Shown here one piece after another: positions 2,687 through 52,131 of a stretch of 64,000 nucleotides of DNA (position 1 is its first letter; every line of letters begins with the position of its first letter). The position numbers and the translations under genes are program-made. The notes under the pieces were generated by a model that made no database searches, was not told the DNA's origin, and worked only from the letters and a program-made list of their open reading frames with translations. This stretch comes from a virus. The stretch is taken from the IMG/VR virus record IMGVR_UViG_3300017963_000246. One strand, given 5' to 3'.

Positions 2687-3456
2687 AGTTGTACCACGGC
2701 GATTGTCTGGAGATTCTACCGACGCTTGAGGCGGGGAGCGTGGATGCTGTGATTGCGGATCTTCCCTATGGCATAACGGCGTGTAAGTGGGACACGGTGA
2801 TACCATTCGAGCCGCTGTGGACGCAGTATAAGCGGGTCATCAAGAGGCGCGGGGCAATTGTGTTGTTCGGGTCTCAGCCGTTCGTCAGCGTACTGGTGAT
2901 GAGTAATCTGAAGTGGTTTAGGTATGAATGGATATGGGAGAAAGACAAAGGGCCAAACTTTGGAGCTGTGAAGTTCCGCCCTTTTACTGTAAGTGAACAT
3001 ATTGTCGTGTTTTCCAAGAACAGGCATACATATAATCCTCAGATGTGGAACGCTGGATTTGTGACAAATCGCTCCGCGTCCGACGGGCAATATGTAGGTG
3101 AGCAAAATGTATATGGTTCTAATGGTCTTAGAACAACGTGGCGGAATGCAACGAATAGATATCCGCGAAATGTGATTAGATTTGCTGTACCAAAGCATAA
3201 TGATGGGCGGAATGATGGACATTGCCATCCAACTCAAAAACCCGTTCCTTTACTCGAATATCTTATTCGCACATATACTAATGAGGGTGAGGCAGTGCTT
3301 GACAACACCATGGGCTCCGGCACAACCGGCGTTGCCTGTGTCCAGACTGGGCGGGACTTTATTGGGATTGAAATCGACAAGGGCTATTTCGACATCGCCA
3401 AGGCGCGGATTGAGAAAGCACAAGCAGAGATATTACAACTGGAGATGCTTGTCTGA
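2665..3456 (+). CDS. DNA methyltransferase (N6-adenine/N4-cytosine, beta-class motif order)
   Basis: KLYHGDCLEILP, VDAVIADLPYG (DPPY-type motif IV variant), HPTQKPVPLLEYLI, LDNTMGSGTTGVAC..DFIGIEID (SAM motif I after motif IV). Start set at GTG 2665 behind GGGAGGG; 2644 or 2683 also possible. Confidence 0.85.
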   Translation: MEPTATVKLYHGDCLEILPTLEAGSVDAVIADLPYGITACKWDTVIPFEPLWTQYKRVIKRRGAIVLFGSQPFVSVLVMSNLKWFRYEWIWEKDKGPNFGAVKFRPFTVSEHIVVFSKNRHTYNPQMWNAGFVTNRSASDGQYVGEQNVYGSNGLRTTWRNATNRYPRNVIRFAVPKHNDGRNDGHCHPTQKPVPLLEYLIRTYTNEGEAVLDNTMGSGTTGVACVQTGRDFIGIEIDKGYFDIAKARIEKAQAEILQLEMLV

Positions 3457-4853
3457 TGGAGCCAATCGCGACGATCATAATGCCGACGGTCGACCTCGAC
3501 CGTGCCGGGGAGACGCTGGCGATGTCCAGGGCCACGGCGGGCGTCGAGACGAGCGCCTTCCTGTACTGGGACTTCAAGCCGCGCGGAGCGGTCTGGTCGT
3601 CGAACGCACTGTTCAAGGCGGCGCTACACATGGAGACGCCGTACGTGGCCTACATGAACGACGACACGGTTCCGGAGCAACAAGACTGGCTGAAGCTGAT
3701 GATAGGGGCCCTGGAGCGGGACGCGAAGTTCGGCTGGGCGTGTCCGTCCGGCGAGTGCTCCACAAACCCGCAGCGCAGCGGCAGGCCGGGCGACCCGTTC
3801 GAGGTCCACGTCGTGAAGAAGCCGATGGCATGGTTCGTGGCGGTCATCAAGCGGGAGTGCCTGGAGGACGTGGGCGGGTTCTGGGAGGAGCTCATCCACT
3901 ACGGGGACGAGAGCGACTGGATTCAGCGGGCGTTCCGCAAAGGGTGGAAGCAGATTTGGACCAGGGGCGTCTACATCCGGCACAACAAGCAGGGCGGCGG
4001 GGAGATGAAAAGCCTGCGCAACGTGTGGGCCGGGCACGACAAGCGGCTGTACCGCAAGCGGTGGGTCGGTGGGAAAAAAAAGACGAAAGCGCAGGCGGGG
4101 AATGAGAGTCTAAAAGTGAAGACTTCCGGACTGCTGAAGGGGTCACAATTCTCCTGCATCGCCGGGACGGGCAGGACCGGCTCGCACTGGCTGCAGAAGT
4201 TCATCCAGGTACACGCGGTCGGCAAGGTGCAGACGTTCCACGACGGGCTTCCGAACCGGCTGAAGCACCGTCCTTCGGCCCGGTGGCAGATGGCAAACTA
4301 CCTGCTCAACCTGGAGGCCAAGGCCCCCGGCGCGGAGGTGTACGTCGAGTGCAACCCGGCGCTTCTGGAGTGGGTGATGCTCGACCATCCGGGGGGCGAG
4401 GTGCTCCCGGCAGGGATGCTTGACAGGGACTCAAAGGTTTTGTTGGCTGTCCGGCACCCGTACGGCTACGTCAAGAGCATCAAGGCGAAGGCGTGGGCCT
4501 GGAATTGGCACAAGAAGCCGGGATGCACCATCAAGGGTTGGCAGACGGCGAGCTTGGCAGAGAAGGCGTCAAAAGCGTGGGCGTTCAAGAACCGGCTCAT
4601 CTTGGAGTCGTTCCAACATGTACCGTACGTACGGTTCGAGGACTTGTTCAGCGACGGTGGTGCAGTGTTCGTGCGCGACGCGCTGGAAACACTCGGTATA
4701 GAGACCGACGTCCCTGACGAGCAGATAGAGCACGAGCTCGGGTACAGGGCCGCGCCGAAAGGTGGCTGGCAAACACCGTTGACCGATTCTGAGAAGGGGT
4801 GCATAGTGGACATTTGCGGGCCGATGATGGGAGAATTCGGCTATGACGCGTAG
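3456..4853 (+). CDS. bifunctional GT2-like glycosyltransferase / sulfotransferase-like protein
   Basis: N-terminal IIMPTVDLDR and YMNDDTV (GT2-like DxD); C-terminal half has CIAGTGRTGSHWL (5'-PSB P-loop-like) and AVRHPYGYVKS (3'-PB RxPxxxxxS), as in PAPS-dependent sulfotransferases. Confidence 0.6.
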   Translation: MEPIATIIMPTVDLDRAGETLAMSRATAGVETSAFLYWDFKPRGAVWSSNALFKAALHMETPYVAYMNDDTVPEQQDWLKLMIGALERDAKFGWACPSGECSTNPQRSGRPGDPFEVHVVKKPMAWFVAVIKRECLEDVGGFWEELIHYGDESDWIQRAFRKGWKQIWTRGVYIRHNKQGGGEMKSLRNVWAGHDKRLYRKRWVGGKKKTKAQAGNESLKVKTSGLLKGSQFSCIAGTGRTGSHWLQKFIQVHAVGKVQTFHDGLPNRLKHRPSARWQMANYLLNLEAKAPGAEVYVECNPALLEWVMLDHPGGEVLPAGMLDRDSKVLLAVRHPYGYVKSIKAKAWAWNWHKKPGCTIKGWQTASLAEKASKAWAFKNRLILESFQHVPYVRFEDLFSDGGAVFVRDALETLGIETDVPDEQIEHELGYRAAPKGGWQTPLTDSEKGCIVDICGPMMGEFGYDA

Positions 4854-5526
4854 CAGATGTGCAATGGTGATCTCAATCCCCAGAGCAGGAAGCTCCTGCG
4901 TGGCTGGGGCGCTCCATCGGCTGGGCGTTGACATGGGGACTGGTCATTTTCAGGGGAAGGATAAGGCCAACCCGCGCGGATACTATGAAGACCTCCAATG
5001 GCGCTACGCCAACCAGCGCGTGACGGGTCGCGGGTATGATGCCGAGCGTGCTGTGAAGGTAAAACCGGGCAAGAAGCAGAAACAGATTTGGCGGGAGCTC
5101 GCGGCGCAGTACAAGTCGAAATCCTTGTGGGGGATGAAGGACCCGTGGCTGTGCTTCGTCGGCAGGCACGTGTGGAAGGCGTTGCGTGAAGAGGACGTGA
5201 ACGTCCGCGCGGTGTTCGTCCGAAGGGATTTCGAGGCAAGCTGCGCGAGCATCTGCAAGCACATCCAGAAAAGCTACCGGGGCAAGTACAGGATGAAGCC
5301 GAGCGAGATAGCGTCTACCTGGCTGTGGGCGTTCGAGCAGCGTCGGGCGGAATGGGATGGGGAAAGCCTCGACGTCTGGTACGAGGAACTGCTCGCAGAC
5401 CCGGACGCGGAAATCCGGCGCATGGCGGGGTTCTGTTATGCGGGACTGGAGATACCTATACCGGGCATCTCAGACGCGGTGAAGTGGGTGTCGCCGGCAC
5501 TCCAGCATTTCAAGGGGGGACGATGA
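4843..5526 (+). CDS. sulfotransferase family protein
   Basis: VISIPRAGSSCVAGAL (5'-PSB-like), GMKDPW, VFVRRDFEASCAS (3'-PB-like); 11-nt overlap with upstream gene. Confidence 0.6.
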   Translation: MTRSRCAMVISIPRAGSSCVAGALHRLGVDMGTGHFQGKDKANPRGYYEDLQWRYANQRVTGRGYDAERAVKVKPGKKQKQIWRELAAQYKSKSLWGMKDPWLCFVGRHVWKALREEDVNVRAVFVRRDFEASCASICKHIQKSYRGKYRMKPSEIASTWLWAFEQRRAEWDGESLDVWYEELLADPDAEIRRMAGFCYAGLEIPIPGISDAVKWVSPALQHFKGGR

Positions 5527-6650
5527 TACAGGTGTTCTCGAACAGCCTCGACGTCATCGAGGCGCAAGCGATGATGAAAGTGCTGTACTCCAAATGGCTC
5601 GGCCGCGGGGAACGGTGCCGCGAGTTCGAGCAGGCTTGGGACCGGCACATCATCCAGGAAGGGTCGCTCTTGTTCAACTGCTGCACGGCGGCGAGCAAGG
5701 TTGCCCTGCAGGCGCTAGGCGTGGGACGGGGAGACGAGGTCATCTTGCCGACGTGTCATTTCGTCGGGGTGGCGAATGCCGTCATCGAAGTCGGAGCATT
5801 TCCGCGGTTCGCAGATGTGGACCCGATGACGATGCACATTCTGCCGAGTGAAATCGACAGGCTGAGGAACCAGTACACGAAGGCCGTGTTCATGCTTCAC
5901 TACGGCGGGCACGCGGCTTCAATGGAAGACATCATGGCGGCGTCAGAAGGGCTCCTCGTGTTGGAGGATGCGGCGAACGGACCGTGCACGGCCGTCGACG
6001 GCAAAGCGATAGGAACGTTCGGGGACGCCGGGGTGTGGTCGTTCGACGCGATGAAGGTGTTGGTGATGGGTGACGGAGGGATGCTTTGGCTCCGGGACGA
6101 AGAGGCTCAAAAACGGGCCGAGGCGCTGCGGTACATGGGCCTCGCTCCCAAGAGTAAAAGCGGCATCGACAGTTCGGCAGAGCGAGACAGGTGGTGGGAG
6201 TTCGATTTGGTCGAGTGCAGCGGGCGGTACACGTCGAACGACGTCCTGGCGGCGGCCGCGCTGATGCAGATGACCAGGCTCCCTGCGACGGTGCAGCGGC
6301 GAAGGGACATATGGAGAGCGTACCAGACGGAGCTCAGAGACGTGCCTGAAATTACGCGCCCTCCCGAGCCCTTGCCGGGGTCGACGATGACCGGATACCT
6401 GTACTGGATCCAGTGCGACGACAGGGACTTGCTTGCGCGGTACCTACTGGACAACGGCGTGTACACGACGTTCCGGTATTGGCCGCTGCACTTGGTGCCG
6501 TACTACAGGGACATGGGACTCTGCCCCGAGGCGCTTCCAAACGCAGAACGCGCAGCGGAACGGACGTTGTGCCTGCCCATCCACCAGAACCTGACGGCGG
6601 CGGACGTCGACAAGGTCATCTCCCTGGTGAGGGAGTTTTATAGGAGGTAG
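5523..6650 (+). CDS. DegT/DnrJ/EryC1/StrS-family PLP-dependent sugar aminotransferase
   Basis: ATG 5523 in ATGA overlap; ILPTCHFVGVANAV, SFDAMKVLVMGDGG (PLP-lysine box), LCLPIHQNL; ORF-track extension to 5325 discounted. Confidence 0.85.
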   Translation: MIQVFSNSLDVIEAQAMMKVLYSKWLGRGERCREFEQAWDRHIIQEGSLLFNCCTAASKVALQALGVGRGDEVILPTCHFVGVANAVIEVGAFPRFADVDPMTMHILPSEIDRLRNQYTKAVFMLHYGGHAASMEDIMAASEGLLVLEDAANGPCTAVDGKAIGTFGDAGVWSFDAMKVLVMGDGGMLWLRDEEAQKRAEALRYMGLAPKSKSGIDSSAERDRWWEFDLVECSGRYTSNDVLAAAALMQMTRLPATVQRRRDIWRAYQTELRDVPEITRPPEPLPGSTMTGYLYWIQCDDRDLLARYLLDNGVYTTFRYWPLHLVPYYRDMGLCPEALPNAERAAERTLCLPIHQNLTAADVDKVISLVREFYRR

Positions 6651-25505: not shown

Positions 25506-25721
25506 ATGTTCAACACGAAAGAGTTCTGGATCGCGGTGGTCGACCTGGTGGTGAGCGTGGCGCTGTATTTCGGGGCGAAATACCTGGCTCCGGAGGCGTT
25601 CGAGGACGTCAAATTCCTCATCGGCGTCTTGCAGCCGTTCGTCATCATGATCATCGGCGTCCTGGTGACTGCCAAGGTCATCGCGGGAGTGGCGGCGCTT
25701 ACGGCGGCCATTCGAAAGTAG
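25506..25721 (+). CDS. holin-like small membrane protein
   Basis: 71 aa with 2-3 hydrophobic helices (FWIAVVDLVVSVALYF, FLIGVLQPFVIMIIGVLV, VIAGVAALTAAI); last gene of the + block; GGGAGG SD. Confidence 0.45.
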   Translation: MFNTKEFWIAVVDLVVSVALYFGAKYLAPEAFEDVKFLIGVLQPFVIMIIGVLVTAKVIAGVAALTAAIRK

Positions 25722-25727
25722 GGACGT

Positions 25728-25753
25728 GGGGGAGGGCAACGAGGCCCTCCCCC
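25728..25753. terminator. GC-rich hairpin between convergent late and early blocks
   Basis: GGGGGAGGGC-aacgag-GCCCTCCCCC, a perfect 10-bp stem between stop 25721 (+) and stop 25771 (-); no strong U-tract. Confidence 0.5.
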
Positions 25754-25770
25754 TGCTTCCCCCCTGGAGC

Positions 25771-27441
25771 CTAGATTTCTCCGCGGACGAACCCGGAGAT
25801 GGTGTTCGGCGTAGCCGTACTGTACCCTACCACATCGAGCATCCCTGGGTCGGTTGGGTCGCTGATGGAGAATCCGTTGCTCGTCATCCCCACGACAACG
25901 AGCTTGGCGTCGATTCCGGTTTTTTCCCGATACAGTTGCACGGCTTGACATGGGTGCATCTCGGGATTCGCCCACGTCTCGGAATCAGTGTAAATCAAAA
26001 ACGCGTCGACGTCCCAGCCCTTCTCCAGGGCGTAGAGCATCGGCAGCGCGCAGTCTGTCCCCCCGAAAGGCATCCCGTCGGTCAGCGCGACCACGTCGTC
26101 GAGGCGCTGCCTCTTGGACAGCGGAAGAACAGAGATGCCGTCCTTCCCGCCATATCCCCAGCGGCTCCTGCCCTTCTTCGCCATCGCGCCCTCCCCTGCG
26201 CACGAGAACGCGGTCGTGAACACCTTGTCCTCCGTCCGAAGCGCGACCATCGCCATCGCGGCCGAGCCGGCCCGCGGCGTGACGCCGGTCATCCCGGCGA
26301 CCTCTCCATTGGACATCGACCCAGACACGTCGAGCGCGAGCATCATCCGTTTCCCCGCAGGTTCCACGTTCTGGAACGACAAGTAGAACGCCTCGTCCAG
26401 CGCGTCGACAATACCTGTGATGGGGTCCCAGGAAAGCGAACCGCGAAACCCGTGTCCCTGCTCGTAAGTCTTCATCGCGACCAGGACGGACAGGGGATGG
26501 ACGCGGGCCTTGGCAAGGCGCTCTGGATCGAGCAGCCGCATGCACACAACGTCCGTGTCGGCGCTCAGCGGTTTCAAGAGACCGATCTGGGTCATCTTCC
26601 CCAAGTTGCGAAGCATCGCCGTCATCGGCATCTTGTCCAACAGCGCGGACCACACGACCTCGCTTTTCAGATGCTCGGTCGGTACCATCTCCCTGGTCAA
26701 CCTGTATAGGCTGATGGCTTCAGCGACGTCAACCGACGTGGCCTCCCGCTTCAGAGATTCGAACGCGTTGATTTGGGCAAGGTGCGCAGGCGGGTCGGTC
26801 AAGATGGTGCCTTCCCATCCGTTCACGGCCCAGTTGTACAGATCGTTGTGCGGACCGTCAACCGGGTTCACGTGTGCCTTGCGCAAGACGTCTCTGTGGG
26901 ACCAGCCGTCCCGGCTCTGGTACTTTAGCAACTGGTAGGCGAGTCGGTCGGCCGGCTTATCGTTGTACCAATGCGCAAACGCCTCCCGCAACCCGCGTCC
27001 CCAGCCACGGAATCCCTGCACGAACTCCGCGAAGTGGAACAAGTGCGTGCCGATTCGCGCGACTTTCGGGAGAGCCGCGTATGCCAGATTGCGTGTCTCG
27101 TTGTCATCTGCCGCGGCGGCCATCGCCAGCGCGAACAGCGCGGGGTCGTTCTTCGGCGCGCGGCCGGCTAGGGATATTTCAACGATACGCTCAACTGTCC
27201 TAGCTCCGTCTTCCTTTAGGCATTCCGCCACGGCCTCGGCGTTCTCCCTGGTCAATTCCCGCGCGGTGGCGTAGTACGTGTTCGCGGACGAACCCAGGAC
27301 GAGGAATCGGTCAAGGCGCTTCCAGCAGTCAAGCCCGAATACGAACCCGCCGGCGCGGCCTTTCACCATCGCCTTGCCAGGGATGGGCTCCGACTGGGGA
27401 GTCTTACGGGTCTGATAGAGGTTCTTGTAGTTCCAGGACAT
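25771..27441 (-). CDS. rsr: Ro60-related protein (Rsr): TROVE domain + vWA domain
   Basis: ATG 27441 behind AAAGGAGAA. N-terminus FGLDCWKRLDRFLVLGSSANTYYA and LAGRAPKNDPALFALA (TROVE-like). C-terminal vWA with MIDAS LDVSGSM, FGGTDCALP, FLIYTDSETW and GMLDVVGYSTATPNTISGFVRGEI tail, as in bacterial Rsr. Confidence 0.9.
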   Translation of the reverse strand: MSWNYKNLYQTRKTPQSEPIPGKAMVKGRAGGFVFGLDCWKRLDRFLVLGSSANTYYATARELTRENAEAVAECLKEDGARTVERIVEISLAGRAPKNDPALFALAMAAAADDNETRNLAYAALPKVARIGTHLFHFAEFVQGFRGWGRGLREAFAHWYNDKPADRLAYQLLKYQSRDGWSHRDVLRKAHVNPVDGPHNDLYNWAVNGWEGTILTDPPAHLAQINAFESLKREATSVDVAEAISLYRLTREMVPTEHLKSEVVWSALLDKMPMTAMLRNLGKMTQIGLLKPLSADTDVVCMRLLDPERLAKARVHPLSVLVAMKTYEQGHGFRGSLSWDPITGIVDALDEAFYLSFQNVEPAGKRMMLALDVSGSMSNGEVAGMTGVTPRAGSAAMAMVALRTEDKVFTTAFSCAGEGAMAKKGRSRWGYGGKDGISVLPLSKRQRLDDVVALTDGMPFGGTDCALPMLYALEKGWDVDAFLIYTDSETWANPEMHPCQAVQLYREKTGIDAKLVVVGMTSNGFSISDPTDPGMLDVVGYSTATPNTISGFVRGEI

Positions 27442-27460
27442 TTCGATTCTCCTTTCCGAA

Positions 27461-27490
27461 CAAAAAGGCGCGGCCCACACGGACCGCGCC
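27461..27490 (-). terminator. intrinsic terminator closing the ncRNA array
   Basis: Minus-strand GGCGCGGuccgugugggCCGCGCC followed by TTTTTG; lies ~20 nt upstream of the rsr SD. Confidence 0.7.
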
Positions 27491-27494
27491 ACGG

Positions 27495-27775
27495 CTCACA
27501 AATGCGGGCAAAAGGTTGTGCACGGGGATAACCATTCTGTAGGTAACCGTGCACGAGCGGCCCTGCAACGAACTCATTCAAGATGCGGGCGAAACGTGTG
27601 GTCGGGGACCGGAATTCTCCGGCTGGCGGATATCTAGTCCGCTCTATGGCATGAAGCCATCGGCAGATAACCGAGCCACGGTCGGCCCTGCATCGTCTTT
27701 CAGTTGTTAAGCGGACGAACGATTGCGCAGCGGCTTTATCTCCACAGGATAACGCTGCACGAGCGGCCCTGCTAG
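27495..27775 (-). ncRNA. three structured RNA modules sharing the AGGGCCG-N9-10-GGUUAYC core (candidate Y-RNA-like RNAs)
   Basis: Cores at 27747-27770, 27666-27689 and 27542-27564. In each module the 3' part of the core opens a hairpin with compensatory changes (GCAGCG/CGCUGC; GGCUCGG/CCG..AGCC; GUGCACGG/CCGUGCAC). A duplicated UUyGCCCGCAUyU box follows modules 4 and 5. No credible ORF. Confidence 0.55.
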
Positions 27776-27885
27776 TAGGAAAGGCCGGATTCGAACCGGA
27801 TTGACATTTGCCAGGTAACCTTCGTACGGCGGCCCTCAGGGCGAAAGTGTCCGAAGGGTTCCCTCCCAACGAGGGTCCTTTCCTA
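27776..27885 (-). ncRNA. tRNA-like RNA 2 (cloverleaf frame with replaced anticodon arm)
   Basis: Acceptor AGGAAAG/CUUUCCU (7 bp), D-arm CCCUC-GUUGG-GAGGG, T-arm CCGG-UUCGAAU-CCGG. About 55 nt containing the conserved core (27814-27836) sit where the anticodon arm should be; no canonical anticodon loop. Confidence 0.6.
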
Positions 27886-27895
27886 TTGGTGTAGG

Positions 27896-28017
27896 GATGT
27901 GGGGCTGGACTTGAACCAGCGGCCTCTCCATTACAAGTGGTAACCTTCTCGACGTCGGCCCTCTTGGGGCTAAAGTGCCGGAAGGGATTTAGCGCTCTTC
28001 CTCTGAGCTACCCACAT
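27896..28017 (-). ncRNA. tRNA-like RNA 1 (cloverleaf frame with ~50-nt conserved insertion)
   Basis: Acceptor AUGUGGG/CCCACAU (7/7 bp), UA, D-arm GCUC-AGAGGAA-GAGC, T-arm GCUGG-UUCAAGU-CCAGC. The conserved core (27939-27962) lies between the D-arm and a degenerate anticodon-like hairpin (loop CUUGUAA). The 5' end coincides with the predicted TSS of promoter 28026-28054; no encoded CCA. Confidence 0.6.
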
Positions 28018-28025
28018 CCAAGCAC

Positions 28026-28054
28026 ATTATACCATGAACTGACGGTCTTGTCAA
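28026..28054 (-). promoter_or_regulatory. sigma70-type promoter P1 (drives the ncRNA array)
   Basis: Minus strand TTGACA-17 nt-TATAAT with TGG extended -10. Confidence 0.8.
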
Positions 28055-28281
28055 TACGCGATTTCAAGTCGTGCTTTCACGTCGTCGAGCCATTCCGCCG
28101 TGGGCTGGCCCTCTTGGTCTATGCCGATGCAAAGCGTCCGTTCCTCATACCGGATATGGTCAGAATGACCTCCGGCTTCGCACCATGTGAGAATAGTCGC
28201 CTGGTTTCGGATGTACGCGCCAACAAAGACTAATACTACCACAAGAAAGACACAACAGACTATACCTATCCATGCATCCAT
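28051..28281 (-). CDS. small membrane protein
   Basis: ATG 28281 behind AAGGAGG; MDAWIGIVCCVFLVVVLVFVGAYI TM helix; 76 aa. Confidence 0.55.
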   Translation of the reverse strand: MDAWIGIVCCVFLVVVLVFVGAYIRNQATILTWCEAGGHSDHIRYEERTLCIGIDQEGQPTAEWLDDVKARLEIAY

Positions 28282-28282
28282 A

Positions 28283-28978
28283 TCACGTTTCCTCCTTCGC
28301 AACCTTCACCCAGTACCGCGCGGTCGACTCCGCTTTCGGCACGAACCCATGAGAAGCCAGCAATTCGTTCACACCGGTGACCGTCAGCGTCGCGCGCTCC
28401 CCGTCCAAACCCGCGGCGATGTCCCGCCAATCTCCGATGGATGCCTCCTTTGGTGGCCGCGGCTTCACGCTTCCTTCACGTTGCCTCTGCTCCCACCCGT
28501 GCCGGCTTTCGTTCCACTTGCGCCAGCGTTCGCCGAACGACGCCTGTCTGAGGCCAAGTTCCATCGCGTTCGCGTAAAAGTCCAAGGACGAACACAGCAG
28601 CAGCGCAAGCGGACCGTAACTTCGCGCCCACGTCACCCAAGCCAGCGCGAGCTCCGTCTGCCTGGAGAATACGACGAACATGTTTCCCAGTGTTGCCAAC
28701 AGAGACACGGCGATGCCGAGCCAGTCCCAAAGGTGTGCCTCGCCGATTTTCCATTTGCGCCAGACTTCCATTACGGTGGCGATGGTGCCCATTTCTCCGC
28801 CGACGACCATGAGCGCCGACCCGACGAGTTGTGTTCCTAGTGACGGTGCCTGGGCGCTGATGGCCTCCAGCCCATACAGGGACACGCCCACGACCCACAA
28901 GAGGGCTGGCGCGAGGAGCGCGGCGAACATCCCGTCGAGCAGCTTGGGTTCAGGTTTCCAGTATGTTGACTTCGACAC
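28283..28978 (-). CDS. multi-pass membrane protein with soluble C-terminal domain
   Basis: 231 aa; four or more hydrophobic helices, then a charged C-terminal region. Confidence 0.7.
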   Translation of the reverse strand: MSKSTYWKPEPKLLDGMFAALLAPALLWVVGVSLYGLEAISAQAPSLGTQLVGSALMVVGGEMGTIATVMEVWRKWKIGEAHLWDWLGIAVSLLATLGNMFVVFSRQTELALAWVTWARSYGPLALLLCSSLDFYANAMELGLRQASFGERWRKWNESRHGWEQRQREGSVKPRPPKEASIGDWRDIAAGLDGERATLTVTGVNELLASHGFVPKAESTARYWVKVAKEET

Positions 28979-33143: not shown

Positions 33144-33833
33144 TCAGTCTCCTTTCAGTTCATTTCTATCTGTTTCTGGTGCGAACCCGTCAGGCCACAC
33201 CGTGTACTCATTCCAATGCGCCCATCTCAGGTTGGACCATCTCAGGTTGGCCCCGCGCAGGTTGGCCCATCTCAGGTCGGCCCCGCGCAGGTTGGCCCCG
33301 CGCAGGTTGGCCTCGTACAGGGTGGCCCCGCTCAGGTTGGCCCCGCGCAGGTCGGCCCCGCGCAGGTCGGCCAGGCGCAGCTCGGCCCCGCGCAGGTTGG
33401 CCCCGCGCAGGTTGGCCCCGCTCAGGGTGGCCTCGTACAGGTTGGCCTCGTACAGGTTGGCCCCGCTCAGGGTGGCCTCGTACAGGTTGGCCCCGCGCAG
33501 GTCGGCCCCGCGCAGGTCGGCCAGGCGCAGGTACCGCCACAACGCACGCGGCGACACGCGGCGCAACTCGACGGCCTGGTAACTGCCCTTGTCTTCGTCT
33601 TCACCCACCAGCACAACACCCCGCGCCCACCATGCCCGCCAGTCGCGTGGTGCCCAACGAGCATCAAGTGATTTCATCAGGTGCAGTCGCCCCGGCCCGC
33701 AGGCCCTGCCGTCTGGCTCTGCTGGCTCCGGGTGTTCTGTGCGTGCCCATTTCTGACCGCGTTGGGGCAGGTTGTAGACGAATGGCTCGCCTTTGTAGTA
33801 AGTGCATCCTGTCGGGTCAAGGAATTTCCACAT
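33144..33833 (-). CDS. pentapeptide-repeat protein
   Basis: ATG 33833 behind AAGGGAG; about 27 consecutive A(D/N)LxG-type pentapeptides ([28 protein letters not shown]...) following a ~90-aa N-terminal domain. Confidence 0.85.
33225..33535 (-). repeat. 15-nt-periodic tandem repeat (coding, pentapeptide repeats)
   Basis: ccccgcgcaggttggc-type units visible in the DNA; lies inside CDS 33144-33833. Confidence 0.8.
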
Positions 33834-42399: not shown

Positions 42400-43290
42400 C
42401 TAAAACAGTTCCGGGCAATTGCGCTTGGTTTCCTCGATGACGCGGCCGTAGAGGCGCTTGAAGTCGACGGTCGGGAACTTGTGCTTCTTCACGATGTCCC
42501 ACATCTCGTCGGCCACGATGTCGTGCCAGACCCGCCCCAACAGTTCGGGTATCCTCTTGCGGGTGAGCGGGCCGGCGTCACGCATCTTGGCGAGGGCTTT
42601 CTCCACGCGCCCCCTGGTAACGTACTCGGTCGCGATTGCGAGCTCGACCTGCTGTTTCATCGCCACTGTTGGGGCTCCGAACGTCTCCAGGTTACGCTCC
42701 TTGAACTCGTTCTTGACCAGCTTCCCCCATACGGTCTCGCCCCACTCGTTCTCCCAACCGTATCGCTTGATGACGATACCTTCGCCGGGACCGTTGCCGT
42801 CCTCGATGAGATAGGTGTTACGGTCGAGCAGCCCGACCAGGTGCTCTTCGGTGGGACTGAGGACGACTTCGAGCGGCGCGATGACCGGAAAGGGCAGGGG
42901 CGAAACCAGGGGTTCGTACTCGTCGTATGCCAAGTATCGCTCCTCTGCGTCATGGTAGACGTCGAAGATGTAGAACTGTCGCCAGGCTTCCTTCCTGTAG
43001 GTGCGCAGGGTGTGGGGTACAAGCCACTCGCCGTACAGGCGCAGGTCGGGATAGTCCGTAAAGAACGGCAGGAAGTCGTCGGTGTGTTCGGCTACGAACG
43101 CCAGGAACCCGGCGTTGTCTTCCCCTTCCGACAGGTGGCGTCTCCGGCTGCCGGCACACAGTTGCCCGGTGTCCATCCACACGCTGGCGTTCGTGCCGTC
43201 AATCTTCGGGAACACGTAGCAGGTGCCGTCCAGCAGCCCGGCGACCTCGTCGCTCCCCAATCTCTCGATGTGCCTGTACTTCTTGAACAT
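42400..43290 (-). CDS. ATP-dependent RNA ligase (Rnl2/PF09414-like nucleotidyltransferase)
   Basis: Motif I FPKIDGTNASVW (KxDGxN), motif IV GEGIVIKRY, motif V WGKLVKNEFKE; AAAGGAGA SD; first gene after P4. Confidence 0.75.
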   Translation of the reverse strand: MFKKYRHIERLGSDEVAGLLDGTCYVFPKIDGTNASVWMDTGQLCAGSRRRHLSEGEDNAGFLAFVAEHTDDFLPFFTDYPDLRLYGEWLVPHTLRTYRKEAWRQFYIFDVYHDAEERYLAYDEYEPLVSPLPFPVIAPLEVVLSPTEEHLVGLLDRNTYLIEDGNGPGEGIVIKRYGWENEWGETVWGKLVKNEFKERNLETFGAPTVAMKQQVELAIATEYVTRGRVEKALAKMRDAGPLTRKRIPELLGRVWHDIVADEMWDIVKKHKFPTVDFKRLYGRVIEETKRNCPELF

Positions 43291-52034: not shown

Positions 52035-52102
52035 TGGCTGCGCCGGAGGGAGTCGAACCCTCTGCCGCCCCAGACCTAGTCTACTAGGATATGAGCGGCG
52101 CA
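52035..52102 (-). ncRNA. orphan tRNA-like element (acceptor stem + T-arm + encoded CCA; no canonical D or anticodon arm)
   Basis: Minus strand UGCGCCG ... GAGGG-UUCGACU-CCCUC CGGCGCA G CCA, with a mini-hairpin CCUAG-uaga-CUAGG in between. Pairing extends to a 15-bp inverted repeat (52031-52045 / 52096-52110). Confidence 0.5.
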
Positions 52103-52131
52103 GCCAGGGGAGCCCGAGGGCTCCGGTTGAG

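What the first reader, a model, noticed from the sequence alone, without database searches (positions are those of the whole stretch)
25771..28054. Phage-borne Ro60/Rsr orthologue coupled to its own promoter-driven ncRNA operon
Seen: CDS 25771-27441 (-) has the full Ro60 architecture. It has a TROVE-like N-terminus (FGLDCWKRLDRFLVLGSSANTYYA) and a C-terminal vWA with MIDAS DVSGSM and a GMLDVVGYSTATPNTISGFVRGEI tail. Directly upstream on the same strand is a ~560-nt stretch with no credible ORF. That stretch begins 8-10 nt after a perfect TTGACA-17-TGGTATAAT promoter (28054-28026). It ends at a GC hairpin plus TTTTT (27490-27461), only ~20 nt before the rsr SD. Established: in Deinococcus and Salmonella, Rsr acts with adjacent Y RNAs. 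YrlA carries a tRNA-like domain, the Deinococcus Y RNA tethers Rsr to PNPase, and the Salmonella locus is co-operonic with the rtcBA RNA-repair genes. Inference: this phage carries a complete Ro60 RNP kit with an expanded five-module RNA partner locus. The role of Ro60/Y RNA during phage infection is essentially unexplored; candidates are RNA quality control, countering RNA-targeting defence, or hijacking host exonucleases.
Basis: partly seen in the sequence, partly recalled or inferred. Interest (0 to 1): 0.85.

Follow-up and report, generated by a model that had tools for sequence, protein, structure and literature searches.

The report
Phage Ro60 with five Y RNAs
A roughly 78-kb phage carries the RNA-binding ring protein Ro60 behind a strongly promoted array of five partner "Y RNAs"; phage Ro60 with Y RNAs is already known, but two of these RNAs are built like ordinary tRNAs with the Ro60-binding hairpin in place of the anticodon arm, a layout I did not find described.

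Summary
CDS 25771-27441(-) is a full-length Ro60/Rsr: TROVE 1.9e-44, Ro60-type vWA 1.8e-53, and an end-to-end match to Xenopus Ro60 at 6e-120. Upstream lie a perfect extended sigma-70 promoter, one of seven such promoters on this strand. Next come about 515 nt holding five modules that each carry the Ro60-binding motif, then a terminator-like hairpin about 20 nt before the start codon.

- Y RNAs next to phage Ro60 were reported in 2014 (22 phages).
- A Thermus phage Ro60-Yrl-PNPase complex was characterised in 2025.
- IMG/VR holds at least 356 viral contigs with Ro60.
- Arrays of 5-8 modules occur elsewhere.

What is new is the topology of modules 1 and 2. They have the native tRNA gene order: an open 9-bp acceptor stem starting at the predicted transcription start, D arm, closed Ro60-binding hairpin in the anticodon position, variable arm, T arm. 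Classic YrlA is circularly permuted relative to this.

A covariance model built without the window scores them at 88 and 44 bits. It finds the same form beside Ro60, always on its strand, in about half of 157 related loci. Function during infection remains inferred.

The parts
28026..28054 (-). Sigma-70 consensus promoter: -35 TTGACA at 28054-28049, 17-nt spacer, extended -10 TGgTATAAT at 28034-26. The predicted start is G28019 or G28018. The stop codon of the upstream 83-aa ORF lies inside the -35 element.
   Evidence: 12/12 match; one of 7 perfect copies, all on the minus strand, with 0 expected by chance. Sequence read.
27895..28019 (-). Module 1: a tRNA-order Y RNA.
- Acceptor 5' strand GGAUGUGGG, 28019-11
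- U8 A9
- D arm GCUC-AGAGGAA-GAGC, 28008-27994
- Ro arm 27985-27944: proximal stem, Ro helix UUUAGCCC/GGGCCGA, loop CAAGA
- UUAC 27943-40
- Variable arm CCA-CUUGUAA-UGG, 27940-28
- T arm GCUGG-UUCAAGU-CCAGC, 27920-04
- Acceptor 3' strand CCCACAUCC, 27903-27895
   Evidence: Model R1, built without window sequence, scores it 88.2 bits, E 1.5e-20. The MFE fold gives this structure. Sequence read.
27776..27885 (-). Module 2: a degenerate tRNA-order Y RNA.
- Acceptor UAGGAAAGG / CCUUUCCUA (9 bp)
- D-like hairpin CCCUC-GUUGG-GAGGG
- Ro arm 27857-27819: GCCC-UGA-GGGCCG
- UUAC
- Small variable hairpin
- T arm CCGG-UUCGAAU-CCGG
   Evidence: R1 scores it 44.5 bits, E 1.8e-9. MFE fold.
27711..27772 (-). 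Module 3: a 62-nt hairpin Y RNA, GCAGGGCCG...GUUAUC...CGUCCGC. The Ro helix is formed by its two ends.
   Evidence: R2 gives 15 bits, E 0.02 within 3 kb, which is weak.
27585..27691 (-). Module 4: a 107-nt Y RNA. A terminal Ro helix (GCAGGGCCGA / UUUCGCCCGC) and upper stem enclose three small hairpins, giving a predicted four-way junction.
   Evidence: MFE fold, z -2.18. It shares its ends with modules 3 and 5. Model R2 does not detect it.
27504..27566 (-). Module 5: a 63-nt hairpin Y RNA, GCAGGGCCG...GGUUACC...UUUUGCCCGC.
   Evidence: R2, built from 41 hairpins of other loci, scores it 28.7 bits. E is 6.6e-5 within 3 kb and 0.012 over the whole window. Fold z -2.44.
27462..27490 (-). Terminator-like hairpin GGCGCGGUCC-GUGU-GGGCCGCGCC followed by UUUUU, between the RNA array and the rsr ribosome-binding site.
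27449..27457 (-). Shine-Dalgarno sequence GGAAAGGAG, 7 nt before the ATG at 27441.
   Evidence: Sequence read.
25771..27441 (-). Ro60/Rsr orthologue, 556 aa: TROVE ring plus Ro60-type vWA domain with MIDAS motif DVSGSM.
   Evidence: Pfam. (1YVP 6e-120, 9NEN 9.7e-117, 2NVO 3.5e-116). (NCBIfam Rsr 504 bits). (phrog_850, 9e-82)..
25728..25753 (-). G+C-rich hairpin GGGGGAGGGC-CUCGUU-GCCCUCCCCC, 17 nt after the rsr stop codon, between rsr and the convergent + strand gene. It may be a transcript end or stabiliser.
   Evidence: Sequence read. The terminator scan does not flag it because it lacks a T run.

Best explanation
This is a phage Ro60 ribonucleoprotein cassette.

Transcription. A strong host-type (sigma-70 consensus) promoter, one of seven identical ones on this strand of the phage, drives one transcript that begins at the first base of module 1. 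The transcript carries five Y RNA modules.
- Modules 1 and 2 are tRNA-shaped molecules in the normal tRNA gene order: acceptor 5' strand, D arm, a closed hairpin carrying the conserved Ro60-binding bulged helix where the anticodon stem-loop would be, variable arm, T arm, acceptor 3' strand.
- Modules 3-5 are conventional Y RNAs whose two ends form the Ro60-binding helix.

Inferred steps.
- Host tRNA-processing enzymes (RNase P, 3' trimming, perhaps CCA addition) and other RNases cut the array into separate RNAs.
- The hairpin plus U-run stops most transcripts, so the RNAs are made in excess. Read-through supplies rsr mRNA.
- Ro60 binds the GGGCCGA/UUGCCC helix of each RNA.
- The variable remainder of each RNA (tRNA-like body, hairpin, cloverleaf) tethers Ro60 to different host partners. 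By precedent the most likely partner is PNPase, which would redirect or damp host RNA decay. A link to RNA repair through the phage's own RNA ligase is also possible.

Shown here: the protein's identity, the signals, the motifs, the family membership of modules 1, 2 and 5, and linkage to Ro60 across many loci. Inferred: expression, processing, binding and any effect on infection.
For: Protein.

Signals.

No gene is called in the leader in four assemblies.

Modules 1 and 2. Model R1 was built from 72 tRNA-order modules of other loci. It scores module 1 at 88.2 bits and module 2 at 44.5 bits, with nothing else in 64 kb above 16 bits.

The same RNA lies next to Ro60 elsewhere.
- 98 hits at E<=1e-11 in 57 of 80 bacterial loci, all on the Ro60 strand.
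- About 21 of 77 viral loci.

Strand bias of the Ro motif. It occurs 330 times on the Ro60 strand and 2 times on the other strand across 157 loci.

Reverse test. Of 80 IMG/VR stretches found by the RNA pattern alone, 57 have a Ro60 homologue within 3.7 kb. All 57 are on the same strand, and in 52 the RNA is upstream.

Structure.
- The acceptor stem uses many pair types.
- The Ro arm folds as one hairpin in 62 of 71 members.
- The proximal stem is complementary to its own partner in 50 of 56, against a mean of 30.8 and a maximum of 41 with shuffled partners.
- CCA is encoded at positions 74-76 in 14 of 77, and ACCA follows an 8-bp stem in 9 of 77.

Modules 3-5 are paralogues with compensatory stem changes. 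Module 5 matches model R2.

Precedents.
- In M. smegmatis, YrlA and YrlB lie upstream of rsr, are processed from one precursor and are bound by Rsr. YrlA is cut by RNase P and gains CCA (PMC4201824).
- Thermus phage phiLo Ro60 binds its upstream Yrl1 and Yrl2 and host PNPase (PMC12135203).
Against: - There is no expression, processing or binding data for this phage. Host and sample biology are unknown.
- No Rfam family matches.
- Modules 3 and 4 have weak or no covariance-model support. Module 3's fold is no better than shuffles (z -0.43).
- The window's modules deviate from the published GNCGAA motif at its sixth base (GCCGAC, GCCGCC, GCCGCU).
- The four metagenome copies read (L003-L006) are identical across the RNA region, so there is no within-phage covariation.
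- My set of tRNA-order modules was selected on acceptor pairing. The pairing percentage is therefore partly circular.
- A terminator directly in front of rsr, with no second promoter, leaves Ro60 expression unexplained unless read-through occurs.
Confidence: 0.78

Rival explanations
1. The 560-nt stretch acts mainly in cis, as a structured 5' leader of rsr mRNA. Ro60 binds its own leader at the five sites and controls terminator read-through, stability or translation. On this view the leader autoregulates rsr and does not yield free trans-acting Y RNAs.
For: - There is no promoter between the array and rsr, and the terminator-like hairpin ends 4 nt before the Shine-Dalgarno sequence.
- In 52 of 57 RNA-anchored viral loci the RNAs lie upstream of Ro60 on the same strand.
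- Hairpins directly before the Shine-Dalgarno sequence are also visible in L011 and L087.
Against: - In some loci the same RNA modules lie downstream of Ro60 (5 of 57) or kilobases away. Some large contigs carry extra copies far from Ro60.
- tRNA-like ends and encoded CCA point to excised stable RNAs.
- In M. smegmatis the upstream RNAs are processed and accumulate bound to Rsr (PMC4201824).
- The two roles are not mutually exclusive.
Confidence: 0.1
2. Modules 1 and 2 are real decoding tRNA genes interrupted by an intron-like insertion between the D arm and the anticodon arm. The 'variable arm' CCA-CUUGUAA-UGG would be the true anticodon arm (UGU, Thr). The link to Ro60 would then be incidental or limited to processing.
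For: - The Rfam tRNA model scores related modules at 45-55 bits despite the insert.
- 30 of 73 members have a 3-6 bp stem with a 7-nt loop of the form YU-NNN-R at that place.
- An open acceptor stem with encoded CCA occurs in a subset.
Against: - Module 1 scores only 14.4 bits on the tRNA model, against a cutoff of 29. ARAGORN finds no tRNA.
- The stem is 3 bp in module 1.
- 22 of 73 members have no such 7-nt-loop arm, and several have almost no variable arm at all.
- The insert carries the conserved Ro60-binding helix and is the best-conserved non-tRNA part.
- From my own knowledge, no bacterial splicing system for that position is known.
- The sequence next to the D arm (GAGCGCUAAAU) matches classic YrlA.
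Confidence: 0.03
3. The array is a decaying remnant captured together with a bacterial rsr gene and has no function in the phage.
For: - Module 2 has a degenerate D arm and a 4-bp T stem.
- The Ro motifs deviate from the family consensus.
- The closest Ro60 relatives are bacterial, at 55-59% identity.
Against: - A perfect phage-type promoter is placed so that transcription starts at base 1 of module 1.
- All helices are intact, with 9-bp acceptor stems.
- The region (25701-28320) has no differences in the four metagenome copies read, L003-L006.
- The same architecture recurs in many viral contigs.
Confidence: 0.05

Closest known systems
YrlA / YrlB with Rsr (Salmonella Typhimurium, Mycobacterium smegmatis; Chen et al. 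2014, PMC4201824; Wang et al. 2018, bioRxiv 10.1101/312249)
   Same: - ncRNAs sit beside rsr on the same strand. In M. smegmatis they lie upstream and are processed from one precursor.
- One RNA has a tRNA-like domain with near-invariant D and T arms, a YUAY element and a variable arm, plus a Ro-binding 5' motif.
- A second type is a plain hairpin.
- Module 1 even shares the GAGCGCUNAAA flank of the D arm with classic YrlA.
   Different: - In YrlA the T arm precedes the D arm, the acceptor stem is closed by a loop and the RNA ends lie in the Ro helix (described as a circularly permuted tRNA that lacks a free CCA end).
- Here the D arm precedes the T arm, the acceptor stem is open and the Ro helix is closed by a 3-5 nt loop.
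- Both strands of the Ro helix are recognisable here. In Salmonella and M. smegmatis only the 5' strand is.
- There are five modules rather than two.
Thermus phage phiLo phiRo60 with Yrl1 and Yrl2 (Hu et al. 2025, PMC12135203)
   Same: A phage-encoded Ro60 with Y-like RNAs directly upstream. It is the only phage system with biochemistry: Ro60 binds the RNAs, and host PNPase joins to form a RYPER-like complex that slows PNPase.
   Different: - The phiLo RNAs are described as stem-bulge-stem Y RNAs with a CGAA motif, and no tRNA-like module is mentioned.
- There are two RNAs, not five.
- phiRo60 did not appear among PDB sequence matches to this protein at E<=0.001, so the proteins are distant or that entry is missing from the copy searched.
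Mycobacteriophage (Bixzunavirus) Ro-like protein with YrlA
   Same: A phage Ro60, with a DNA match of about 69% over part of the gene in 206 Mycobacterium phage records. A tRNA-like D arm and a hairpin Y RNA are visible upstream of the gene in phage Colt.
   Different: - The Colt RNA reads as the classic permuted type. The D arm is followed by the 3' strand, and the Y hairpin follows that.
- The phages are otherwise unrelated: there is no other DNA similarity.
Deinococcus radiodurans Yrn1/Yrn2-Rsr-PNPase (RYPER)
   Same: - Several Y RNAs are encoded upstream of rsr in a polycistronic precursor.
- Both strands of the bulged Ro helix are conserved.
- Module 4 (Ro stem plus three hairpins) resembles the Yrn1 layout.
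- The Y RNA tethers Ro60 to PNPase.
   Different: - In Yrn1 the Ro helix takes the place of the acceptor stem. In modules 1 and 2 it takes the place of the anticodon stem-loop.
- No sequence-level match was tested or found.
Circularly permuted tRNA genes (Cyanidioschyzon and others), cited in 10.1101/312249
   Same: The relation between modules 1 and 2 and classic YrlA is a circular permutation of one fold.
   Different: This is an analogy only. In those cases the permuted precursor is processed back into a normal tRNA.

Membership tests
Ro60 / Rsr | N-terminal TROVE (HEAT-repeat ring) domain | tested here: met
   Pfam PF05731, 1.9e-44, 153 bits against a cutoff of 23.
Ro60 / Rsr | C-terminal Ro60-type vWA domain with MIDAS motif DxSxS | tested here: met
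   PF25045, 1.8e-53, covering the full profile 1-165. The motif DVSGSM is read in the translation.
Ro60 / Rsr | End-to-end similarity to structurally solved Ro60 proteins | tested here: met
   1YVP 6e-120 (query 16-551 aligned to chain 7-533), 9NEN 9.7e-117, 2NVO 3.5e-116.
Ro60 / Rsr | NCBIfam Rsr equivalog score cutoff | tested here: not met
   NF041674 scores 504 bits at 3.4e-151 with full-length coverage, but the curated cutoff is 900. The protein is a divergent member, not an equivalog by that rule.
Y RNA (generic Ro60 partner) | Bulged helix with a conserved 5' strand (GGUCCGA-like) paired to a UUGACU-like 3' strand | tested here: met
   All five modules carry GGGCCG(A/C) opposite a (U/C)(U/C)-G(C/U)CC strand, with the second C unpaired. 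The family consensus is CUUGCCCG...CGGGCCGA.
Y RNA (generic Ro60 partner) | Encoded next to Ro60 on the same strand | tested here: met
   The window. The motif occurs 330 times on the Ro60 strand against 2 on the other in 157 loci. All 57 RNA-anchored loci with Ro60 have it on the same strand.
Y RNA (generic Ro60 partner) | Bound and stabilised by Ro60 in vivo | not testable with these tools
   This needs a pull-down or EMSA.
Y RNA (generic Ro60 partner) | Match to the Rfam Y_RNA model | tested here: not met
   No Rfam family scores at E<=10 apart from tRNA at 14.4 bits and chance matches.
YrlA | tRNA-like T arm (GGUUCRANUCC) and D arm (UAGCUCA...GAGC) | tested here: met
   Module 1 has both. 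Module 2 has the T loop but a divergent D hairpin.
YrlA | GNCGAAN0-1G motif near the Ro-binding 5' strand, and YUAY before the variable arm | tested here: inconclusive
   UUAC or UUAU is present in all five modules. The motif reads GCCGACG, GCCGCCG, GCCGCUCG, GCCGACCG and GCCGCUCG, matching five of six fixed bases. Many relatives have an exact GCCGAAGG.
YrlA | Permuted order: Ro 5' strand, V arm, T arm, closed acceptor stem-loop, D arm, Ro 3' strand, with the RNA ends in the Ro helix | tested here: not met
   - The order here is acceptor 5' strand, D arm, Ro 3' strand, loop, Ro 5' strand, V arm, T arm, acceptor 3' strand.
- The 9-bp acceptor stems pair across each module.
- The strand after the T arm of module 1 (CCCACAUCC) cannot pair with the strand before the D-like arm of module 2 (UAGGAAAGG).
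- The predicted transcription start coincides with the acceptor 5' end.
tRNA | Recognised by tRNA finders and has a 5-bp anticodon arm | tested here: not met
   ARAGORN finds none. The Rfam tRNA model gives 14.4 bits against a cutoff of 29. The candidate arm has a 3-bp stem.
tRNA-order Y RNA family defined here (model R1) | Open 7-10 bp acceptor stem, D arm, closed Ro hairpin, optional V arm, T arm, in that order | tested here: met
   With a model built without window sequences, module 1 scores 88.2 bits and module 2 scores 44.5 bits.

The most novel reading that the evidence does not exclude
Modules 1 and 2 may belong to a large, so far undescribed class of Y RNA found in phages and in Chloroflexota, Myxococcota, Gemmatimonadota, Armatimonadota and other bacteria. 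These would be genuine tRNA-topology molecules with a free acceptor end, sometimes with an encoded CCA. A closed Ro60-binding hairpin replaces the anticodon stem-loop.

Such RNAs would be the unpermuted counterpart, and a plausible ancestor, of YrlA. Where neighbouring acceptor stems are alike (L097, L100, L135), tandem copies can re-pair into the classic YrlA layout. That offers a simpler origin than the published dimeric-tRNA model.

These RNAs could be matured, CCA-tailed or even charged like tRNAs. Ro60 would then be tethered to tRNA-handling or translation factors, and tRNA-processing enzymes could punctuate Y RNA arrays.
Probability: 0.35. Interest if true: 0.75.

Novelty: new variant of a known kind. 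Interest (0 to 1): 0.5.

Why it matters
Ro60 and Y RNAs matter in human autoimmunity, yet their functions are best understood in bacteria, and the purpose of the tRNA-like part of bacterial Y RNAs is an open question.

This locus is a compact, self-contained test system. It has one strong promoter, five different Y RNAs and one Ro60 in a phage that also carries an RNA ligase.

The tRNA-order modules give two directly testable ideas:
- Y RNA arrays may be cut up by the host tRNA-processing machinery.
- The permuted YrlA may have arisen from ordinary tRNA-shaped ancestors by tandem duplication.

The tRNA-order form sits beside Ro60 in about half of the related loci examined. Covariance models of classic YrlA probably miss or mis-frame many bacterial and viral Y RNAs.

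The system as a whole is not new. It is one more phage Ro60-Y RNA cassette, and its role in infection is still only inferred.

Tried and rejected
- Rfam. Gathering mode over the whole window and E-value mode over 27300-28300 found nothing useful. Twenty related loci gave only tRNA hits, some 120-136 nt long, which turned out to be the tRNA-order modules. Rfam 15 evidently has no model that detects bacterial YrlA-type RNAs.
- ARAGORN found no tRNA or tmRNA.
- Folding the whole 566-nt leader gives a long-range fold that mixes modules and is not informative. Folding each module separately is.
- I considered reading a classic YrlA across modules 1 and 2, from the Ro 5' strand of module 1 to the Ro 3' strand of module 2. 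I rejected it because no acceptor hairpin can form between them, while each module closes its own 9-bp stem.
- MAFFT plus RNAalifold on the Ro arms recovered only the 5-bp Ro helix. Variable internal loops misalign the proximal stem, so I used an anchor-based partner-shuffle test instead.
- Model R2 for simple hairpins has only 6 modelled pairs. It supports module 5, supports module 3 weakly, and does not detect module 4.
- There is no within-phage covariation. The four metagenome copies read are identical in the RNA region.
- The extra motif hit at 51219-51238 lies inside a coding region and was set aside as chance.
- Three papers could not be read because they are not held: Sim et al. 2020 (Annu Rev Microbiol), Boccitto and Wolin 2019, and Burroughs and Aravind 2016. 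The supplements of Chen et al. 2014 are not held either. I therefore cannot exclude that tRNA-order forms, or the 'b7a-tRNA' said to occur occasionally next to Rsr, have already been described.

Full report
**What is there**

On the minus strand, read 5' to 3', the upstream 83-aa ORF ends inside a -35 element. A perfect extended promoter follows: TTGACA, 17 nt, TGgTATAAT, at 28054-28026 (12/12). Seven nucleotides after the -10 element, at G28019, a 515-nt non-coding stretch begins. That stretch ends at a 10-bp G+C-rich hairpin plus UUUUU (27490-27462). Four nucleotides later comes GGAAAGGAG, and seven nucleotides after that the ATG at 27441 of a 556-aa ORF that ends at 25771.

The same promoter sequence (TTGACAA...CATGGTATAAT) occurs seven times in the window, always on the minus strand, with none expected by chance. 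It is therefore a real promoter class of this element. One copy sits directly in front of an RNA ligase gene.

**The protein**

- Pfam gives TROVE at 1.9e-44 and the Ro60-specific vWA domain at 1.8e-53 over the whole profile.
- The MIDAS motif DVSGSM is present.
- The protein aligns end to end with Xenopus Ro60 (1YVP, 6e-120), human RO60 and Deinococcus Rsr.
- It matches NCBIfam Rsr over its full length at 504 bits, below that model's strict equivalog cutoff of 900.
- It falls in PHROGs family 850, a phage 'RNA-binding protein' family.

The identical protein is encoded on six metagenome contigs of 70-78 kb. Their different start points and phage-like genes indicate a complete phage genome of about 78 kb. 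Those genes include Gp3-like, Phage_ABA_S, a DnaB-like helicase, a primase, a replication initiator and large tail-like ORFs. The nearest other Ro60 is 59% identical, and close relatives are mostly from Chloroflexota, Myxococcota, Gemmatimonadota and Armatimonadota. No deposited phage is similar beyond about 69% identity over part of the Ro gene.

**The RNA array**

Five modules each carry GGGCCG(A/C), then 9-13 nt, then GUUA(U/C)C.

Modules 3 (27772-27711), 4 (27691-27585) and 5 (27566-27504) are paralogues. All begin GCAGGGCCG and end CG(U/C)CCGC. Their ends pair to give the classic Y RNA helix: GGGC/G(C/U)CC, then an unpaired C, then G paired with U or C.
- Modules 3 and 5 are 62-63-nt hairpins whose upper stems differ by compensatory changes (GCAGCG/CGCUGC against GCACGG/CCGUGC).
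- Module 4 encloses three small hairpins.
- A model built from 41 such hairpins of other loci finds module 5 (28.7 bits), finds module 3 weakly (15 bits), and does not find module 4.

Modules 1 (28019-27895) and 2 (27885-27776) are different. Each is closed by a perfect 9-bp stem formed by its own ends: GGAUGUGGG/CCCACAUCC and UAGGAAAGG/CCUUUCCUA. Inside module 1 the order of elements is:
- U8 A9
- a canonical D arm (GCUC-AGAGGAA-GAGC)
- a 42-nt hairpin whose tip is the Ro helix (UUUAGCCC-CAAGA-GGGCCGA)
- UUAC
- a short arm with a 7-nt loop (CCA-CUUGUAA-UGG)
- a canonical T arm (GCUGG-UUCAAGU-CCAGC)

Module 2 has the same plan, with a divergent D hairpin and a 4-bp T stem.

**Is the tRNA-order form real?**

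The Rfam tRNA model unexpectedly hit 120-136-nt 'tRNAs' directly upstream of Ro60 in related loci. Reading them showed the same plan.

I fetched 80 viral and 80 bacterial loci encoding relatives of this Ro60; 157 remained after removing duplicates. A pattern-plus-pairing scan found 77 such modules in 57 loci. An alignment of 72 of them, excluding the window, shows:
- invariant D-loop and T-loop bases
- the consensus CUUGCCCG...CGGGCCGA..GGUUAUC
- an acceptor stem that uses many pair types, though I had selected for pairing there

The covariance model built from this alignment scores module 1 at 88.2 bits (E 1.5e-20) and module 2 at 44.5 bits (E 1.8e-9). Nothing else in 64 kb scores above 16 bits. 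In the related loci it gives 98 hits at E<=1e-11 in 57 of 80 bacterial loci, and strong full-length hits in about 21 of 77 viral loci, all on the Ro60 strand.

Further support:
- The Ro arm folds as a single hairpin in 62 of 71 members, with GGGC paired to the upstream GCCC in 53.
- The stem next to the tRNA core is perfectly complementary to its own partner in 50 of 56 members. With partners shuffled among members the mean is 30.8 and the maximum 41.
- CCA is encoded right after the discriminator in 14 of 77 members, and ACCA follows an 8-bp stem in 9 more, against about 2% expected by chance. The 3' end therefore behaves like a tRNA end.

**Linkage to Ro60**

Across 157 loci the Ro motif occurs 330 times on the Ro60 strand and twice on the other strand.

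I also scanned IMG/VR with the RNA pattern alone, which returned 109 stretches. Of the 80 fetched, 57 hold a Ro60 homologue within 3.7 kb. In every case it is on the same strand, and in 52 the RNA is upstream.

**Comparison with what is known**

Chen et al. 2014 (PMC4201824) found YrlA next to Ro60 in 254 bacteria and 22 phages and defined it as follows: Ro-binding 5' motif, YUAY, V arm, T arm, closed acceptor stem-loop, D arm, 3' strand. Wang et al. 2018 (bioRxiv 10.1101/312249) solved the tRNA-like domain. [quoted passage not shown] They cite a model in which YrlA arose from a dimeric tRNA transcript.

Modules 1 and 2 share YrlA's parts, down to the GAGCGCUNAAA flank of the D arm. They have the opposite, native tRNA connectivity, so they fail YrlA's defining topology. 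The alternative reading, a classic YrlA running from module 1 into module 2, is excluded because the strands between the two modules cannot pair.

Classic YrlAs also occur in my loci, for example L009, L013, L021, L063, L080, L132 and L153, and in mycobacteriophage Colt. In some tandem arrays with near-identical acceptor stems (L097, L100, L135) either pairing is possible. That suggests how one form could turn into the other.

I found no description of the tRNA-order form in the papers I could read. Three reviews or surveys and the 2014 supplements were not available, so prior description cannot be excluded.

**Phage context and function**

Phage Ro60 is well known. It was seen in mycobacteriophages from 2003 and is noted in jumbo phages (PMC7824862). 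PHROGs has a family for it, and IMG/VR holds at least 356 contigs with it.

Hu et al. 2025 (PMC12135203) showed that Thermus phage phiLo Ro60 binds two upstream Y-like RNAs. Together with host PNPase these form a complex that slows PNPase in vitro.

By analogy I propose the following steps. All are inferred.
1. The promoter fires with the other six copies.
2. The transcript starts at the mature 5' end of module 1.
3. Host RNase P, 3' trimming enzymes and other RNases release the modules.
4. The hairpin plus U-run ends most transcripts, and read-through yields rsr mRNA.
5. Ro60 binds each RNA, and the different RNA bodies recruit different host factors. PNPase is the likeliest.

The phage's own RNA ligase (42400-43290; PF09414 2.6e-18, phrog_548 1.9e-45), behind an identical promoter, makes a link to RNA repair plausible.

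**Verdict**

The cassette is a new member of a known kind. The tRNA-order topology of two of its RNAs is a variant that appears widespread and, as far as I could check, undescribed. Five modules is at the high end among viral loci but not unique.

Noticed in passing
window 52038-52110 (-): An intergenic tRNA-like minihelix. A 15-bp stem (CCCCUGGCUGCGCCG / CGGCGCAGCCAGGGG) encloses a small hairpin (CCUAGUAGACUAGG) and a perfect T arm (GAGGG-UUCGACU-CCCUC). It is a weak hit to model R1 (16 bits, E 0.028) and ARAGORN does not call it a tRNA. It may be a processing or stability signal between two genes.
   Followed up: partly
window 28054, 34290, 43345, 52600, 53902, 55353, 57585 (all -): Seven perfect TTGACA-17-TATAAT promoters with a shared extended form (TTGACAA...CATGGTATAAT), against none expected by chance. 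This is a phage promoter class covering the leftward (replication/early) gene block.
   Followed up: partly
window 42400-43290 (-): An RNA ligase gene (Pfam PF09414 2.6e-18; phrog_548 1.9e-45; only a faint Rnl2 equivalog hit). It lies immediately downstream of one of the seven consensus promoters, in the same phage as Ro60. No polynucleotide kinase/phosphatase was found among the neighbours tested.
   Followed up: partly
window 33220-33530; L003 and L004 3600-4300: An internally repetitive stretch with self-matches of 81-88% identity. It differs in length between metagenome copies of the phage: the called gene is 249 aa in L003 and 229 aa in L004, where it hits Pentapeptide repeat families.
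   Followed up: no
window 3456-4853, 5325-6650, 60253-61389 (+): Glycosyltransferase-like, aminotransferase-like and radical SAM/SPASM genes in the phage. They may be auxiliary or modification functions.
   Followed up: no
L088, L091, L093, L103, L115, L161 and other Myxococcota loci: In these loci Ro60 sits inside or beside large arrays of ordinary tRNA genes (10-25 T-loop motifs within 6.6 kb), with tRNA-order Y RNAs interspersed among them.
   Followed up: no
L097 1400-1841; L100 1982-2235; L135 5274-5561: These are tandem tRNA-order modules with near-identical acceptor stems. [quoted passage not shown] This is a possible evolutionary route between the two forms.
   Followed up: partly
L172, L183, L200, L213, L214, L218, L226, L229, L230, L234: These viral stretches carry the Ro-motif/T-arm RNA pattern but have no Ro60 homologue within several kb. 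Several giant contigs (for example IMGVR_UViG_3300034072_000926 and 3300049044_000033) have extra copies far from their Ro60 gene.
   Followed up: no
window 27940-27928 (-) and 30 of 73 related modules: The variable arm often looks like a short anticodon arm: a 3-6 bp stem with a 7-nt loop of the form YU-NNN-R. The window has CUUGUAA. Among relatives CAU is the commonest middle triplet. Other members lack the arm entirely.
   Followed up: partly
L008 3692-3705; L060 4511-4522; L152 about 745: Some tRNA-order modules carry an extra small GNRA-type hairpin (for example GGGCGAAAGCCC, CCCGCAAGGG) inserted between the D arm and the Ro arm.
   Followed up: no
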